NCBI GenBank assembly: GCA_009692705.1
Contig: SHYR01000003.1
Span: 5,170 to 69,169, forward strand
Direction: 5' to 3'
DNA: 64,000 bases
Source of the DNA: Dehalococcoidia bacterium
GTDB lineage: Bacteria > Chloroflexota > Dehalococcoidia > UBA2979
Shown here: positions 21,365-57,262 of the stretch, piece by piece
How positions within the stretch are numbered: the stretch's first letter is position 1
Layout: every line of letters starts with the position of its first letter
Program-made: the position numbers and the translations under genes
The notes under the pieces: generated by a model
Databases searched by the model: none
Seen by the model: the letters and a program-made list of their open reading frames with translations, nothing else
What the model was told of the DNA's origin: nothing

Positions 21365-22105
<741 letters not shown>

Positions 22106-22158: not shown

Positions 22159-24137
22159 CTAGGCGTCGTCCGGCGGGCCGGCCGGCGGCGTCCCACGACG
22201 CGACGGGGGCCACGGCTCCGGCGCGGGTGCGGCCTCGTCCTCCCCGTCGCCGCCGGCGAACCGCGAGCGCCGCTGGGCGGGCGCCGGCGTAGCGGCGCGG
22301 GCGGCGCGCTCGCGCGCGGTGGGCTGCGGGTACTCCACGCGCTGGTGGAAGGCCGCGTGCAGGGTGTCAATGAACGTGCCGGCGACCACGCGCAGGTCGC
22401 GCAGGTCGCACTGGCCCTCCTCGAGGCGCTCGCGGAGCGTGCCCTCCACGATCGCGCGCAGGCGCTCGTCGGAGCGGTCCGGCGAGGCGCGCGCGGTCGC
22501 CTCGCAGCCGTCGGCGAGCATCACCAGCGCGGTCTCGCGCGACTGCGGCCGGGGGCCGGGGTAGCGGAACGGCTCGGCGTCCGCGTCGACGTCCAGCGCG
22601 GCGGCGCGGCGGTAGAAGTACGTCATCAGGCGCGTGCCGTGGTGCTCCGAGATGAAGCGCGCCCGCACGTCACCGGCAGCCCCTCGCGGTGCGCCAGCTC
22701 GAGCCCGCCGGTGACGTGCGGGTGGATCACGCGCGTGCTCTGCAGCAGGTCGAGCCCGGCGTGCGGGTTCGCGCCGGCGGCGAAGTTCTCGATGAAGAAG
22801 TCAGGCGCCACCAGCTTACCGATGCCGTGGTAGTAGGCGCCGACGCGCACCAGCAGCGCATCCGCGCCGATGCGGCCGGCGTCGCGTCCGCCATGTTGCC
22901 GACCAACACCGCGTGCTGGAAGGTCCCGGCGCCTCGTCCTGCAGCCGCCGCAGCAGCGGATGGCTAAGTTCTGCGAGCTGCATCAGCGCGGCGCGCGTGG
23001 CGATCCCCAGCGCCGGGCTCAGCAGCGCGAACGCGCCCGCCGCGATCAGCGCCGACAGCAGCCCGTCTGCCGTCGAGACGCCCGCGATCCGGAGCAGGTC
23101 GGCTGCGCTGCGCTCGGGGGCGAGCAGCCAGAACAGCACCAGCGCCGCGGCGATCGCGAGCGCGGCGCCCAGCCAGGCGAGCAGGTAGCGCGGCAGCCGC
23201 TCCGCTCGCAGCGCCAGGTAGCCCCCGGCGACCGAGGCGCCGCTGACCGCGAACCACGTGCGCGCCGCCTCCAGCTGCACCGCCGCGGGGTCGATCGTGG
23301 GCAGGTAGACGGGACGAAGACCGCGATCGCGGCCAGCAGCATGGTCAGCAGCAGTGCGGTGGTGAGATCGAGCAGCACCGCCGCCGCGATCGGCGCCACG
23401 GCCAGCGGCACGGCGTAGGCGAGGAAGTGGCGGCCGCCGTCCGGCAGCAGCGCCGGGAACGCGAACTTCGCCGCCAGCACCGGCACCACCAGCAGCAGGC
23501 CGAAGAGCGTGAGCCGGCGCATCCCCGCTAGCGCGCGCGGCGCCGCCACCACGAGATACCCGGCGGCGGCCGCTCCCGCCAGCGCGGCGACCAGCGCGCT
23601 CGCGGCGATCTTGCGCGGCTCCGCGTTCTCGGAACGCAGGCCGAGCGCCCCCAGCAACTCGTTGCGCGACGCGGTCAGCGCCTGGCCCGCGGCGACCAGC
23701 ACCGCGGCGGAGCGCACCGACAGCTTCACGCCCCCCACCGCGCGCATCCGCGACTCCTTCGTGGACGCGGCCAGCGACTGGGTGGCGCGGATGGCGTTGA
23801 TATCGCGCAGCTGCGTCGCGAGCTGGGCGAGCTGGCGGTCGCGGATGCGCGAATCGAACACCAGCACATCCTCCACCGCGCCGGCGGCCTGGTCGCGCCG
23901 CTACTCCGTGAGCACGGCGGACTCGTAACTGAAGTCGCGCAGAGCGGTCACGGTGCGAGGGGCGCGCGCGCCCTCCCGCAGCAGCGCGCGGCCGGGGAAG
24001 ACCGGGAACAGCGCGGCGAACAACGCCAGCGCGAGCAGCGCCCCGAAAGCGACGGCGCCCCCGTGCCCGCGCGCGCGGGCCGCTGCCGGGAGCCGGCTTA
24101 CCAACCCACCAGCGCGATCCCGCCCGGCGCGATGCAT
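22159..24137 (-). pseudogene. 7TM-HD membrane phosphohydrolase (PgpH/YqfF family), disrupted by one nonsense codon and four frameshifts
   Basis: Colinear pieces lie in four ORFs and frames: the N-terminal ectodomain, TM helices, then LLRRLQDEAPG / TFQHAVLVGNMADA / GRIGADALLVRVGAYYHGIGKLVAPDFFIENF...HPHVTGGLELAHREGLP / VRARFISEHHGTRLMTYFYRRA. The lesions are an in-frame TAG at 23901-23903, frame switches near 23310, 22923 and 22670, and a 5-bp tandem duplication GCGTC-GCGTC at 22879-22888. Confidence 0.7.
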
Positions 24138-24141
24138 GGCA

Positions 24142-24591
24142 TCAGCCAGAGGCGAGCAGCTCCCGCACCAGCTCGCTGGCGCGGCGCCCGTCGGCGCGAC
24201 CCTCGAGCCGCGGCACGAGCTGGCCCATCACCTTGCCGAGGTCGCCCGGTCCGCTCGCGCCCGCAGCCGCGATCGCGGAGCGCGCAAGCGCCCGCAGCTC
24301 GTCGTCGGAAAGCGCGGCCGGGACGAAGGAGGCGATCACCTCCAGCTCTTCCTCCTCGGCGCGGGCTAGGTCTTCCCGCCGGCCCTTGCGGTACTCGGCG
24401 ATCGAGTCGCGGCGCTGCTTCGCCTCGCGCTGCAGCACGGCGATACATTCGCGGTCGTCGAGCTCGTGGCCGGCCGCGATGCGGCCGTTGCCGATGGCGG
24501 AGAGCAGCAGACGCATAATGTCGCGACGGCGCGTGTCGCCGCCCTTGATCGCCGCGGTCAGCTCGAAACGGACAGTCTCTTCGATCGGCAT
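24142..24591 (-). CDS. GatB/YqeY-domain protein
   Basis: MPIEETVRFELTAAIKGGDTRRRDIMRLLLSAI...LQREAKQRRDSIAEYRKGRREDLARAEEEELEVI...GDLGKVMGQLV. ATG at 24591 with GGGAGG upstream. The order rpsU-yqeY matches Firmicutes. Confidence 0.8.
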   Translation of the reverse strand: MPIEETVRFELTAAIKGGDTRRRDIMRLLLSAIGNGRIAAGHELDDRECIAVLQREAKQRRDSIAEYRKGRREDLARAEEEELEVIASFVPAALSDDELRALARSAIAAAGASGPGDLGKVMGQLVPRLEGRADGRRASELVRELLASG

Positions 24592-24630
24592 CGCGCCTCC
24601 CGGGACCAAGGCCCCGGCGTGGCCGGGGGC

Positions 24631-24840
24631 TCAGACGCGAAGCCGCTCCTCCTGCTTGCGCACCACCTTGCGCAACTTGCGCAGGCGTGCGGCCGCCTTC
24701 TTCTTGCGCCGCTCGGAGGGCTTCTCGTAGTACTCGTGCCGCCTGGCTTCGGTGAGGATCCCGTCCGCCTGCACGCGCTTGTTAAAGCGCTTCAGCGCAC
24801 CCTCCAGAGACTCCCCTTCGCCGACATGGACTTCGCTCAC
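24631..24840 (-). CDS. rpsU: 30S ribosomal protein S21
   Basis: 69 aa. SLEGALKRFNKRVQADGILTEARRHEYYEKPSERRKKK. Confidence 0.9.
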   Translation of the reverse strand: MSEVHVGEGESLEGALKRFNKRVQADGILTEARRHEYYEKPSERRKKKAAARLRKLRKVVRKQEERLRV

Positions 24841-40649: not shown

Positions 40650-41783
40650 TCAGTGGCGAGCGGCGATCGCGGCGGCCTCTTCCGCCAGCGGCGGCGTGCC
40701 GCAGAACTGGTCGTAGTCGATCAACTCGGTAACCGTCGGGTGCTCGCCGCACAGCGGGCAGCGCGGATCACGCCGCAGCTTCATCGTGCGGAACTCCATC
40801 GTCAGCGCGTCGACCAGCAGTAGCCGCCCGACCAGCGACTGGCCGATGCCGAGGATCTGCTTGAACACCTCGGTTGCCTGGATCGAGCCCACAATGCCGG
40901 TGATCGAGCCCAGCACGCCCGCTTCCGCGCACGACGGCACCAGTCCCGGCGGTGGCGGCGATGGGTAGAGGCAGCGGTAGCAGCCGCCGCCCGGCTTAAA
41001 GACCGTGGCCTGGCCGTCGAACAGCAGGATCGACCCGTCCACCAGCGTTTTGCCCAGCAGGTAGCAGGCGTCGTTCACCAGGTAGCGGGTGGCGAAGTTG
41101 TCGGCGCCGTTCACCACGATGTCGTAATCGCGGATAATCTCCATCGCGTTATCGGAGGTCAGCGGGGCGCCGTGCGGACGCACCGTGACATGCGGGTTGT
41201 AGGCCGCCAGCTTCTCCTGCGCCGAGAGCAGCTTCGACTTGCCGATGTCCGGCGTCTGGTGCAGCAGTTGCCGCTGCAGGTTCGAGAGCTCGACGATGTC
41301 GAACTCCGCGATCCCCACCGTGCCGACGCCCGCCAGCGCCAGGTAGATCGCCACCGGCGAGCCGAGCCCGCCCGCGCCCACCACCAGCACCTTCGCGTTG
41401 CGCAGCTTGCGCTGCCCGCTCGGGCCCACCGGCCCCATGATGATGTGCCGCGAGTAGCGCATCACCTCGTCCGGCGTCATCGCCACCGAGGCGGCGCCGC
41501 CGTCCGCTGCGCCGCCCGCCAGCGCCGGGATGACCGCGATCTGGTCCCCGTCTGCCAGCGCCGTCTCGACCCCCTCCAGCTCGTGGATCTCGCGGTTGTT
41601 GACGTAGATGCTGATGTGCTGCGGCACCCGCCGCGCACCGTCGTAGACCAGCATCTCGAAGCCGGGGTAGCGCGCGGTCAGCGCCTCCAGCACCTCGGCC
41701 ACGCTGCCACCCTCCACGCTCACGTAGTCGTGATCGTGGGTCAGCCGCCGCCACGGCGAGGGGATGTACACGCTCACGGTCAT
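40650..41783 (-). CDS. Fusion of an N-terminal MoaD/ThiS-like beta-grasp domain (internal ...IPALAGG) to a ThiF/MoeB/MoeZ-type E1 adenylyltransferase
   Basis: Residues 1-91 parallel CysO (ISIYVNNREIHELEGVETALADGDQIAVIPALAGG). The linker is AADGGAASVA. The E1 core has RYSRHI, VLVVGAGGLGSP, CYRCLYP...SCAEAGVLG...CPLCG. There is no C-terminal rhodanese domain. Confidence 0.85.
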   Translation of the reverse strand: MTVSVYIPSPWRRLTHDHDYVSVEGGSVAEVLEALTARYPGFEMLVYDGARRVPQHISIYVNNREIHELEGVETALADGDQIAVIPALAGGAADGGAASVAMTPDEVMRYSRHIIMGPVGPSGQRKLRNAKVLVVGAGGLGSPVAIYLALAGVGTVGIAEFDIVELSNLQRQLLHQTPDIGKSKLLSAQEKLAAYNPHVTVRPHGAPLTSDNAMEIIRDYDIVVNGADNFATRYLVNDACYLLGKTLVDGSILLFDGQATVFKPGGGCYRCLYPSPPPPGLVPSCAEAGVLGSITGIVGSIQATEVFKQILGIGQSLVGRLLLVDALTMEFRTMKLRRDPRCPLCGEHPTVTELIDYDQFCGTPPLAEEAAAIAARH

Positions 41784-53735: not shown

Positions 53736-56051
<2,316 letters not shown>

Positions 56052-56120
56052 CTACGGCCTCTGCCCGCGCGTGCCTGCGCAGCGTTTGAGAATCGCGCCC
56101 GCGAGGCGCACGATCGCCCC

Positions 56121-56672
56121 ATGACCGACGCCAGCGACGCGACCGACGGGCCGCAGCCGCCCGCCCATCAGCGACGGCTGACCGAGTACGAGCGCTGGCT
56201 CGCCGCGCCCACGCCGTCCAGCCTCGTCCTGCGCTGGCTGATGGGTCCGCTCGGCGCGTTCTTCGCCAACAGCCCGCTCTTCCGGCTGCCGGAGAGCCTG
56301 CAGCTCCAGCCCTCGCTGCGGCCGACGAGCGCCGCGCCGGCCGGCCACTGCGTCTCGCGCACGCCTCGGCGACCGCGCTGCCATTCCGCTCGGCGACCTT
56401 CAACCTCGTGCTCTGCGGCCACGTGCTCAAGCACCTCGATGACGAGGAGCCGCTGGCGCTGTCGTGCGAGGTGCGCCGCGTGCTGGCGGTGCGCGGGCTG
56501 GCGCTGCTGTGGGAGTTCGCGCCCACCGACAAGCCACGCCTTGATGCCTTCAGCCGTCGTATGCTCGAGCGCGGTGTGCACACGTCGAGGCTGCGCTCCA
56601 CGGCCGCGCTGCTGCAGGCTGCCGCCGATCCAGCGCGCCTCGATCCTGCTCGGCGTCCCGCCCGCTCCCTAG
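56121..56672 (+). pseudogene. Remnant of a class I SAM-dependent methyltransferase (SAM-binding motif I missing, reading frame broken)
   Basis: The N-terminal 60 codons (high GC3) read ...YERWLAAP...LQLQP in frame 1. The post-motif-I part LAAADERRAGRPLRLAHASATALPFRSATFNLVLCGHVLKHLDDEEPLALSCEVRRVLAVRGLALLWEFAP is in another frame. No GxGxG block lies between them, and the second frame has no nearby stop. Confidence 0.45.
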
Positions 56673-57262
56673 CCGCCGCCGTACAGGCCCAGCTCCGCGA
56701 TCACCGCCTGCACGGTCTGCGACACCAGCACGTCCAGAGAGCGCCCGGCGCGCGCGCGCGCGCGCAGCTCCGTGGACGACACCCACAGCGACGGCATCGT
56801 CACGGGGTCCAGGCGTGCCTCCACCCCCGGCACCGCCCGCGCCAGCTCGCCCAGCGCGAGCGCCGCGTCCGGCCGCTGCGCCACCGCCAGCCGCGCCACC
56901 GCCAGCAGCCGCTGCGGCTCGTGCCAGCGCGGCAGGTCGGCGAGCGCGTCGGCGCCGAGCACGAACCACCACTCGCCGCCGCCTTGCGCCAGCGCGGTCA
57001 TCGTGTCGCTGGCGTAGGAAGGGCCGCTCCGCTCCAGCTCCACGGTGCTCGCCTCGGCCCACACCAGCGGAGCGATCGCTCCGCGCAGCATGCGCAGCCG
57101 TGTCACCGCCGGCGATACCGCGCGCTCCGCCTTGAGCCAGGGGTCAGCCGCCACCACGAACATCACGCGGTCCAGCGCCAGCGCCCGCCGCGCCGCGGCC
57201 GCCAGCACCAGGTGCGCGAGGTGCGGCGGATCGAAGGTGCCGCCCACCACCCCGGTCCTCAC
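56669..57262 (-). CDS. nadD: Nicotinate-nucleotide adenylyltransferase
   Basis: GVVGGTFDPPHLAHL and the SSTELR motif (VSSTELRARA). Confidence 0.9.
   Translation of the reverse strand: MRTGVVGGTFDPPHLAHLVLAAAARRALALDRVMFVVAADPWLKAERAVSPAVTRLRMLRGAIAPLVWAEASTVELERSGPSYASDTMTALAQGGGEWWFVLGADALADLPRWHEPQRLLAVARLAVAQRPDAALALGELARAVPGVEARLDPVTMPSLWVSSTELRARARAGRSLDVLVSQTVQAVIAELGLYGGG

What the first reader, a model, noticed from the sequence alone, without database searches (positions are those of the whole stretch)
22159..24137. PgpH/YqfF-family 7TM-HD phosphohydrolase gene carrying five independent lesions
Seen: the whole gene of about 660 codons is present and colinear, but it needs five repairs to read through.
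1. An in-frame TAG at 23901-23903 (…YESAVLTE*RRDQAAGAVEDV…).
2. A frame switch near 23308-23313 (…AAIAVFV | VYLPTIDPAAVQLE…).
3. A frame switch near 22921-22926 (…LQDEAPG | TFQHAVLVGNMADA).
4. A 5-bp tandem duplication GCGTC-GCGTC at 22879-22888. Deleting one copy restores NMADAGRIGADALLVRVGAYYHGIGK.
5. A frame switch near 22668-22672 (…HREGLPV(T) | VRARFISEHHGT…).

All long neighbouring genes (purL, purH, purF, gyrB, dnaB) are intact, so random sequencing error is an unlikely sole explanation.

Established knowledge: members of this family (for example Listeria PgpH) are c-di-AMP phosphodiesterases, and the gene normally sits near rpsU-yqeY as it does here.

Inference: this is recent pseudogenisation of a c-di-AMP-degrading enzyme in an otherwise conserved core context.
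Basis: partly seen in the sequence, partly recalled or inferred. Interest (0 to 1): 0.6.

Follow-up and report, generated by a model that had tools for sequence, protein, structure and literature searches.

The report
Decayed c-di-AMP phosphodiesterase (PgpH) pseudogene
This is the dead remnant of a gene for an enzyme that breaks down the bacterial signalling molecule c-di-AMP; the damage is real evolutionary decay, not sequencing error, but it is an ordinary pseudogene, one of several in this uncultivated Chloroflexota genome.

Summary
The gene is more damaged than reported:
- about 99 residues of the extracellular domain are missing
- 5 residues near the C-terminus are missing
- the catalytic HD dyad reads HG
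- 23 of 179 positions invariant in 11 relatives are substituted

The three flanking genes show only 4 changes at 193 invariant positions, so the decay is specific to this gene. Sequencing error cannot explain it.

Orthologues in 31 of 40 relatives searched are single open frames, mostly about 680-1000 codons; a few are cut short or interrupted. All 11 relatives examined keep the order rpsU-yqeY-pgpH-purQ. The closest solved structure is Listeria PgpH (4S1B, E=1.7e-50).

A genome-wide survey found about 12 other broken accessory genes (dprA, comEC, radC, fpg, a sigma/anti-sigma pair, hsp20 and others). None of the housekeeping genes surveyed has an internal lesion.

About 3% of the bin comes from a second population. 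It holds two cdaA cyclase genes, one of them frameshifted.

Verdict: a real pseudogene that is not very recent. It is ordinary in kind and of low to moderate interest.

The parts
22159..24137 (-). Remnant of a PgpH-type 7TM-HD c-di-AMP phosphodiesterase gene (pseudogene). It is readable only across three frames.
   Evidence: ORF fragments. Three-frame translation. Frameshift-aware alignment to intact orthologues. Pfam PF07697, PF07698 and PF01966 on the read-through. PDB 4S1B at E=1.7e-50.
23901..23903 (-). In-frame TAG nonsense codon in the extracellular domain (...YESAVLTE*RRDQ...). It aligns with Q or A in relatives.
23696..23704 (-). Junction of an in-frame deletion of about 99 residues of the extracellular 7TMR-HDED domain.
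   Evidence: In the alignment with 11 orthologues the window has a 99-column gap that covers 15 invariant columns.
23288..23312 (-). Frame change 1 (net -1 nt), inside the transmembrane region (...AAIAVFV | VYLPTIDP...).
   Evidence: The aligner places it at 23312, 23297 or 23288, depending on the orthologue used.
22921..22926 (-). Frame change 2 (net -1 nt) at ...QDEAPG | (T)FQH..., in the context CCGGGACC.
   Evidence: with 15/15 and 10/15 identities on the two flanks.
22879..22892 (-). Frame change 3 (net -1 nt) in NMA(E)R..AGRIG.
22824..22826 (-). GGC (Gly) codon at the position of the catalytic Asp of the HD dyad (YYHGIGK against YYHD[IVA]GK in all relatives and FYHDIGK in Listeria PgpH).
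   Evidence: (D439G).
22661..22675 (-). Frame change 4 (net -1 or +2 nt), just before the FIxxHHGT motif.
22402..22410 (-). Junction of a 5-residue in-frame deletion (EEGQFDECDLSLRDL becomes EEGQCD--LRDL).
24142..24609 (-). yqeY (GatB/YqeY-domain) gene, intact. It is the upstream neighbour in the conserved gene order.
   Evidence: It is syntenic in 11 of 11 relatives. 3 of 36 invariant columns are changed, which is within the relatives' range.
24631..24840 (-). rpsU (ribosomal protein S21), intact.
   Evidence: 0 of 33 invariant columns changed.
21365..22105 (-). purQ (FGAM synthase glutaminase subunit), intact. It is the downstream neighbour. The listed ORF start at 22213 is over-extended, because homology begins at about residue 37.
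   Evidence: 1 of 124 invariant columns changed.

Best explanation
The locus is a real, non-functional pseudogene of the lineage's single PgpH-type (7TM receptor plus HD domain) c-di-AMP phosphodiesterase. It sits in its ancestral position between yqeY and purQ.

Shown here:
- The reading frame is interrupted by one nonsense codon and four frame changes.
- Two in-frame deletions remove about 99 and 5 residues.
- The metal-binding Asp of the HD dyad is Gly.
- About 14% of formerly invariant residues have been replaced.
- No product longer than a 276-aa N-terminal fragment with an out-of-frame tail can be made, and none can carry a complete HD domain. The locus therefore cannot hydrolyse c-di-AMP.

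Inferred:
- After selection on the gene was lost, substitutions and small deletions accumulated at a near-neutral rate for a considerable time. The inactivation is therefore not very recent.
- The same organism is shedding other dispensable functions, as ordinary gene loss in a small genome (an estimated 1.5 Mb). These include DNA uptake (comEC, dprA, radC), base-excision repair (fpg), a sigma/anti-sigma pair, hsp20 and others.
For: Intact orthologues: they are single open frames in 31 of 40 relatives searched, and 749-785 aa in the six read in full.

Lesion mapping.

Orthology: rpsU-yqeY-pgpH-purQ is conserved in 11 of 11 relatives.

Relaxed constraint specific to this gene:
- At 179 columns invariant in 11 relatives, G000 has 23 substitutions, 15 deleted columns and 2 at frame joins. 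Each relative tested leave-one-out has 2-14 substitutions and 0-1 deletions.
- In the three flanking genes G000 has 4 substitutions at 193 invariant columns and no deletions.
- The terminal branch is 0.61, against 0.46-0.50 for comparable lineages.

Catalytic dyad: HD reads HG, aligned on Listeria PgpH 4S1B.

Lesions cluster by gene:
- 29 curated lesions fall in 13 of 281 surveyed genes.
- 0.09 genes would be expected to have three or more lesions at random, and 4 do (P about 3e-6).
- For this gene P(5 or more) = 1.5e-6.
- The broken genes are accessory functions. Apparent hits in pyrG, purA and pdxT lie upstream of the true starts.

This is the only PgpH copy in the assembly.
Against: - I cannot exclude that one or more of the four single-base frame changes is an assembly error added to a gene that was already dead.
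- No independent assembly of this population exists in the collections searched, so the lesions are not replicated.
- The bin holds about 3% of a second, related population. Statements about the rest of the pathway in 'the same organism' are therefore uncertain.
- The overall branch is only about 1.3 times longer than in comparable lineages.
Confidence: 0.86

Rival explanations
1. Assembly or sequencing error: the organism has an intact, working pgpH, and the frame changes are consensus errors in a draft metagenome bin.
For: - The genome is a 58-contig, 77%-complete bin with a minor second population.
- All four frame changes are single-base events in the same direction, and at least one lies at a G run.
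- Other genes in the assembly also carry single-base frame changes with little amino-acid decay, for example dprA, fpg and the cdaA copy on C24.
- Reads could not be checked.
Against: - Errors do not produce an in-frame TAG, a 99-residue and a 5-residue in-frame deletion, Asp-to-Gly at the catalytic dyad, or 23 substitutions at invariant positions confined to this gene.
- 43 of the 45 surveyed genes on the same contig have no internal lesion.
- Lesions cluster in dispensable genes far beyond random expectation.
Confidence: 0.05
2. A degenerate but still used locus: one or more fragments are expressed as a non-catalytic protein. An example would be the 276-aa N-terminal membrane piece or the 169-aa C-terminal piece acting as a pseudo-enzyme, sensor or binding protein.
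For: - Sizeable ORFs remain: 23876-23046 (276 aa) and 22668-22159 (169 aa).
- Parts of the sequence are still well conserved, for example LSHPLLRRLQDEAPG, QSTRVI and HHGT.
- Non-catalytic phosphodiesterase-like regulators of c-di-AMP signalling are discussed in the literature, as a title listed shows.
Against: - No relative shows the same split.
- The 276-aa ORF ends in about 90 out-of-frame residues.
- Substitutions are concentrated at formerly invariant positions rather than avoiding them.
- The fragment protein has no counterpart in 5.8 billion clustered proteins.
Confidence: 0.05
3. Programmed recoding: ribosomal frameshifting and stop read-through produce a full-length enzyme.
For: All four shifts are in the same direction.
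Against: - Four shifts plus a stop in one gene have no precedent, and the sites show no slippery heptamers.
- Relatives encode the protein in one frame.
- Even a perfect read-through lacks the catalytic Asp and 99 residues of the sensor domain.
Confidence: 0.01

Closest known systems
Listeria monocytogenes PgpH (Lmo1466; PDB 4S1B/4S1C), the founding HD-domain c-di-AMP phosphodiesterase (Huynh et al. 2015, cited in PMC10117814 and PMC13451304)
   Same: - The HD region aligns over the whole crystallised domain (E=1.7e-50).
- The ancestral architecture is the same: an extracellular 7TMR-HDED domain, a 7TM block and a cytosolic HD domain.
- The His motifs FQH, HxHV and HHGT and the ...MLAD... Asp are still recognisable.
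   Different: - The window's copy is interrupted by one stop and four frame changes.
- It lacks about 99 residues of the extracellular domain.
- It reads HG instead of HD at the metal-binding dyad.
- It cannot be an active enzyme.
Intact PgpH orthologues of related Dehalococcoidia genomes (G001-G024; for example G001:C123, G003:C14, G005:C1:1187866-1189341)
   Same: - They lie in the same position between yqeY and purQ.
- They are 51-57% identical to the window's copy and colinear with it.
   Different: - They are single open frames of 749-785 aa with all invariant motifs.
- The window's copy departs at 38 of 179 invariant columns.
HD-domain c-di-AMP phosphodiesterase pseudogene reported in Listeria monocytogenes vaccine strains AUF and AUF-2 (PMC13451304)
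   Same: It is a naturally or historically inactivated PgpH-type gene in an otherwise intact genome.
   Different: - It comes from a different phylum and setting: an attenuated laboratory or vaccine lineage of a pathogen, against an uncultivated environmental Chloroflexota bacterium.
- Listeria also has GdpP as a second phosphodiesterase. I found no GdpP- or DhhP-type gene in this bin.

Membership tests
PgpH / 7TMR-HD c-di-AMP phosphodiesterase (descent from the family) | Sequence homology of the C-terminal region to the PgpH HD domain | tested here: met
   phmmer against the PDB finds only Lmo1466 (4S1B/4S1C), E=1.7e-50, covering residues 4-221 of 222. Pfam HD PF01966 matches the read-through at 8.7e-9.
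PgpH / 7TMR-HD c-di-AMP phosphodiesterase (descent from the family) | Colinear three-part architecture: 7TMR-HDED (PF07697), 7TM-7TMR_HD (PF07698), HD (PF01966) | tested here: inconclusive
   All three are found in order, but only on the artificial read-through. PF07697 covers only profile positions 2-79 of 224. PF07698 scores 25.4 bits, below its 29.4-bit cut-off.
PgpH / 7TMR-HD c-di-AMP phosphodiesterase (descent from the family) | Orthologous genomic position (rpsU-yqeY-pgpH) | tested here: met
   The order rpsU-yqeY-pgpH-purQ holds in 11 of 11 relatives' loci.
PgpH / 7TMR-HD c-di-AMP phosphodiesterase (functional membership) | One uninterrupted reading frame encoding the TM block plus the HD domain | tested here: not met
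   One TAG and four frame changes. Relatives are uninterrupted.
PgpH / 7TMR-HD c-di-AMP phosphodiesterase (functional membership) | His-Asp metal-binding dyad of the HD domain | tested here: not met
   YYHGIGK in the window. All 11 relatives have YYHD[IVA]GK and Listeria PgpH has FYHDIGK.
PgpH / 7TMR-HD c-di-AMP phosphodiesterase (functional membership) | Complete extracellular 7TMR-HDED sensor domain between TM1 and TM2 | tested here: not met
   There is a 99-column gap relative to all 11 orthologues, and it removes 15 invariant positions.
PgpH / 7TMR-HD c-di-AMP phosphodiesterase (functional membership) | Hydrolysis of c-di-AMP to 5'-pApA | not testable with these tools
   This needs a biochemical assay. 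From the sequence no active product is possible.

The most novel reading that the evidence does not exclude
The organism that carries this dead phosphodiesterase may be giving up c-di-AMP signalling altogether.

What points that way:
- The bin's second cdaA (diadenylate cyclase) gene lies on the large contig C24. Like contig C3, C24 is equidistant from all relatives.
- That cdaA has two frame changes and a mildly raised number of substitutions at invariant positions (9 of 83, against 1-5 in family-level relatives). Its DGA and RHR motifs are still intact.

The implied order of events: the phosphodiesterase was lost first and has decayed for a long time. The cyclase was hit more recently. That order would mirror laboratory genetics, where excess c-di-AMP is harmful. 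It would have happened inside a small, 73%-GC genome that is also shedding competence and repair genes.
Probability: 0.2. Interest if true: 0.5.

Novelty: new member of a known kind. Interest (0 to 1): 0.22.

Why it matters
On its own this is a routine pseudogene, and its main practical value is for annotation. The locus should be marked as a pseudogene, not as four or five 'hypothetical proteins', and PgpH should not be counted as present when the c-di-AMP metabolism of this lineage is reconstructed.

The wider context is mildly interesting. About 4-5% of the surveyed orthologues in this small, very GC-rich Dehalococcoidia genome are broken, and they fall into coherent groups:
- DNA uptake: comEC, dprA, radC
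- DNA repair: fpg
- a sigma/anti-sigma unit
- possibly both the enzyme that makes c-di-AMP and the enzyme that degrades it

If contig linkage were established, this would be a natural example of a free-living bacterium dismantling a second-messenger system that is essential in many Firmicutes.

Tried and rejected
1. Plain tblastn with orthologues ran straight through the frame changes, because at 73% GC all frames resemble each other. I replaced it with my own frameshift-aware aligner.
2. A reference-free codon-usage HMM scan for frame switches flagged 40 sites genome-wide. It was noisy and resolved only one of the four sites in this gene, so I used it only as a cross-check.
3. A loose per-event filter in the homology survey gave 48 events in G000 but also 21 in the reverse control. 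Most were N-terminal artefacts from over-extended ORF starts. I replaced it with a gene-level score gain plus Pfam-guided curation.
5. I looked for independent assemblies of the same broken gene. The 276-aa fragment has no other member in the protein collection. The exact DNA across a frameshift has no match in metagenome contigs. No relative is more than 61% identical.
6. TAG reassignment is rejected. In-frame TAGs across the genome align with Q, R, E and W.
7. The 5-bp duplication as the cause of lesion 4 is not favoured, because it gives a product 2 residues too short.
8. Riboswitch-controlled genes as a probe of pathway loss led nowhere. The two G005 riboswitch-controlled units I could examine have no counterpart in G000.
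9. Assigning contigs to the two populations by identity to G005 showed no clear bimodality. Only the Der/EngA pair gave a signal.

Full report
**What is there.** The window is 73% GC. It corresponds to contig C3, positions 5170-69169, of a 1.18-Mb, 58-contig genome bin rated 77% complete with 3% contamination. Between yqeY (24609-24142) and purQ lie six overlapping ORF fragments in three frames on the minus strand. Read in turn, the fragments give a protein colinear with 7TM-HD phosphohydrolases. On this read-through Pfam finds 7TMR-HDED (PF07697, 1.9e-11), 7TM-7TMR_HD (PF07698, 1.5e-5, below its cut-off) and HD (PF01966, 8.7e-9) in the expected order. The HD region matches one solved protein only, Listeria PgpH Lmo1466 (4S1B/4S1C), at E=1.7e-50 over the whole crystallised domain.

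**Checking the five lesions.** Plain tblastn ran through the frame changes, so I wrote a protein-to-DNA aligner that allows frameshifts. Run against intact orthologues from three different genera, it gives the same result each time:
- a TAG at 23903-23901
- frame changes at 23312-23288, about 22923, about 22882 and 22675-22661
- each frame change is a net loss of one base (frame 0 to 2 to 1 to 0 to 2)

The tandem GACGC-GACGC at 22888-22879 exists. Removing one copy yields a product two residues shorter than all relatives. A one-base loss in the preceding codon keeps the length. All five items are therefore confirmed, with a different reading of item 4.

Orthologues are 749-785 aa, while the window's pieces total about 659 aa. 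An alignment with 11 orthologues shows:
- a 99-column gap in the extracellular domain, with its junction near 23700
- a 5-residue gap near 22402-22410
- Gly (GGC, 22826-22824) in place of the Asp of the HD dyad
- heavy substitution of the invariant juxtamembrane helix (SRPFGIITRvELMELaQL becomes SPALGIATRAALMQLAEL)

**Error or biology?**
Three independent arguments replace them.
- *Amino-acid decay specific to the gene.* At the 179 columns invariant in all 11 relatives, the window's copy has 23 substitutions, 15 deleted positions and 2 positions at frame joins. Each relative, tested leave-one-out, has 2-14 substitutions and 0-1 deletions. In the flanking genes yqeY, purQ and rpsU the same genome has 4 substitutions at 193 invariant columns and no deletions, which is within the relatives' range. 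Consensus errors cannot create this pattern.
- *Lesion types.* A nonsense codon and two in-frame deletions are not typical assembly errors.
- *Distribution across the genome: the survey.* I fetched 1.2 Mb of a complete relative, G005. I called 833 ORF proteins from it and aligned them, frameshift-aware, on the whole bin. That gave 281 ortholog-quality pairs covering about 100,000 codons. A reverse control, G000 ORFs on G005 DNA, gave 6 genes with a frameshift score gain of 60 or more, all single-hit. G000 gave 14, several of them multi-hit.
- *Distribution across the genome: artefacts.* Pfam annotation and inspection showed that the apparent hits in pyrG, purA, pdxT, a HIT protein and an ABC ATPase lie upstream of the true starts. 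One further hit is simply the rluB|cmk gene junction.
- *Distribution across the genome: the truly broken genes.* These are pgpH, dprA (4 frame changes), comEC (3), a DUF1003 protein (3 plus a TAG), fpg (1), radC (2 TAGs), hsp20 (2 stops), three adjacent genes (membrane protein, ECF-type sigma factor, RskA-like anti-sigma factor), an HNH protein, a rhomboid protease and a methyltransferase.
- *Distribution across the genome: the statistics.* With 29 lesions in 13 genes, 0.09 genes would be expected to carry three or more lesions at random, and 4 do (P about 3e-6). For pgpH, P(5 or more) = 1.5e-6. The lesions therefore concentrate in dispensable genes and spare the housekeeping ones, as expected of pseudogenes and not of random error. 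In-frame TAGs align with Q, R, E or W, so TAG is not reassigned.

**Orthology and timing.**
- The order rpsU-yqeY-pgpH-purQ is conserved in all 11 relatives examined. The bin has no second pgpH.
- In a maximum-likelihood tree the window's copy has a terminal branch of 0.61, against 0.46-0.50 for comparable lineages.
- About 14% of formerly invariant residues are replaced (23 of 164 still present), and there are six indel events in about 2 kb.
- I infer a period of neutral drift that is not short, so 'recent' is not the right word.
- No relative is closer than about 61% identity. No independent assembly of this population exists in the collections. The event therefore cannot be dated more precisely.

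**Pathway context.**
- The literature recognises five c-di-AMP phosphodiesterase types: GdpP, PgpH, DhhP, AtaC and CdnP (PMC10117814).
- In this bin the only DHHA1-domain hit is of AlaRS size, so no GdpP- or DhhP-type enzyme is visible.
- There is one generic PF01663 protein of unknown activity.
- A c-di-AMP riboswitch is present at C14:67482-67617.
- Every relative has one DAC-domain cyclase, but the bin has two. One is intact, at C15:5716-6550. The other, at C24:41398-40560, has two frame changes but keeps its DGA and RHR motifs. It has 9 substitutions at 83 invariant columns, against 1-5 in family-level relatives.

**The bin is not pure.**
- Self-comparison shows multi-kilobase syntenic matches between contigs at about 70% DNA identity.
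- About 8 of 255 single-copy reference genes occur on two contigs. One of them is the essential GTPase Der/EngA, present on both C15 and C24. This agrees with the 3% contamination estimate.
- The C15 Der copy is closest to G005/G006 (78%, against 70% for the others). The C24 copy is equidistant from all relatives (71-72%), as are the genes of contig C3.
- I therefore think C3 more likely belongs with C24 than with C15, but per-contig identities do not separate cleanly. The idea that phosphodiesterase and cyclase are both decaying in one organism is a possibility (about 20%), not a finding.

**Comparison with what is known, and verdict.**
- The locus descends from the PgpH family, as homology and position show. 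It fails three features required of a functional member: an open frame, the HD dyad and a complete sensor domain.
- A PgpH-type pseudogene has been noted before, in Listeria vaccine strains (PMC13451304).
- This is a new instance of a known kind of thing.
- Its value lies in correct annotation and in a hint of ongoing loss of accessory functions in this lineage.

Noticed in passing
G000 contigs C10:31562-33049 (dprA), C15:1855-4317 (comEC), C53:21877-22884 (radC): All three genes of the DNA-uptake and processing set are broken. dprA has 4 frame changes, comEC has 3, and radC has 2 in-frame TAGs. Amino-acid conservation is otherwise good, so this looks like recent loss of natural competence.
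   Followed up: partly
G000 C24:40560-41398 (minus strand) and C15:5716-6550: The bin has two cdaA (diadenylate cyclase) genes, while each relative has one. The C24 copy has two frame changes, near 41116 and 40938, and the C15 copy is intact. They probably come from two populations in the bin.
   Followed up: partly
G000 contig pairs C15|C24, C3:67896-70161|C37, C43|C55, C31|C42, C10|C44, C14|C21: Different contigs match each other over multi-kilobase syntenic stretches at about 67-77% DNA identity, including a duplicated Der/EngA. About 3% of the bin comes from a second, related organism. The end of contig C3 (beyond window position of about 62700) is one of the duplicated stretches.
   Followed up: partly
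G000 C42:20666-23909: Three adjacent genes are all broken. A membrane protein has a frame change plus a stop, an ECF-type sigma factor has an in-frame TGA at 22592, and an RskA-like anti-sigma factor has a frame change near 23317. A whole regulatory unit appears to be decaying.
   Followed up: partly
G000 C53:18832-20107; C43:27643-28429; C7:7627-8358; C14:25916-26746; C40:1126-2160: Further broken genes:
- fpg/mutM: one frame change at a C run, 19540
- a DUF1003 protein: TAG plus 3 frame changes
- hsp20: 2 stops
- an HNH protein: E to TAG
- a rhomboid protease: W to TGA
   Followed up: partly
window about 55892-56887 (C3:61061-62056), plus strand: A class-I methyltransferase remnant downstream of gyrB has two frame changes, near window positions 56310 and 56618. 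An earlier first-reader note flagged it independently.
   Followed up: partly
G000 C56:24572 (minus strand): An in-frame TGA sits exactly at the first Cys of a CxxC motif in a redoxin-like protein (SW*GC, against SWCSC in G005). This is probably a selenocysteine codon, not a lesion.
   Followed up: no
window about 21520-21580 (purQ, minus strand): purQ contains a run of Gly-Ala codons (...AAGAGAGAGAGAGAGAAT...), which looks like a short in-frame hexanucleotide repeat expansion inside an otherwise conserved enzyme.
   Followed up: no
G005 (relative) C1: about 1224884-1226654, 1345922-1347588, 2071070-2073391: The complete single-contig relative used as reference itself shows three genes with strongly supported single frame changes relative to intact G000 ORFs. 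These are either its own pseudogenes or assembly errors.
   Followed up: no
G000 C10:21269-23085 against G005: rluB (pseudouridine synthase) and cmk (cytidylate kinase) are one 498-aa open frame in G005. In G000 they are two genes in different frames separated by a TGA. This is either a gene fusion or a frame error in the relative.
   Followed up: no
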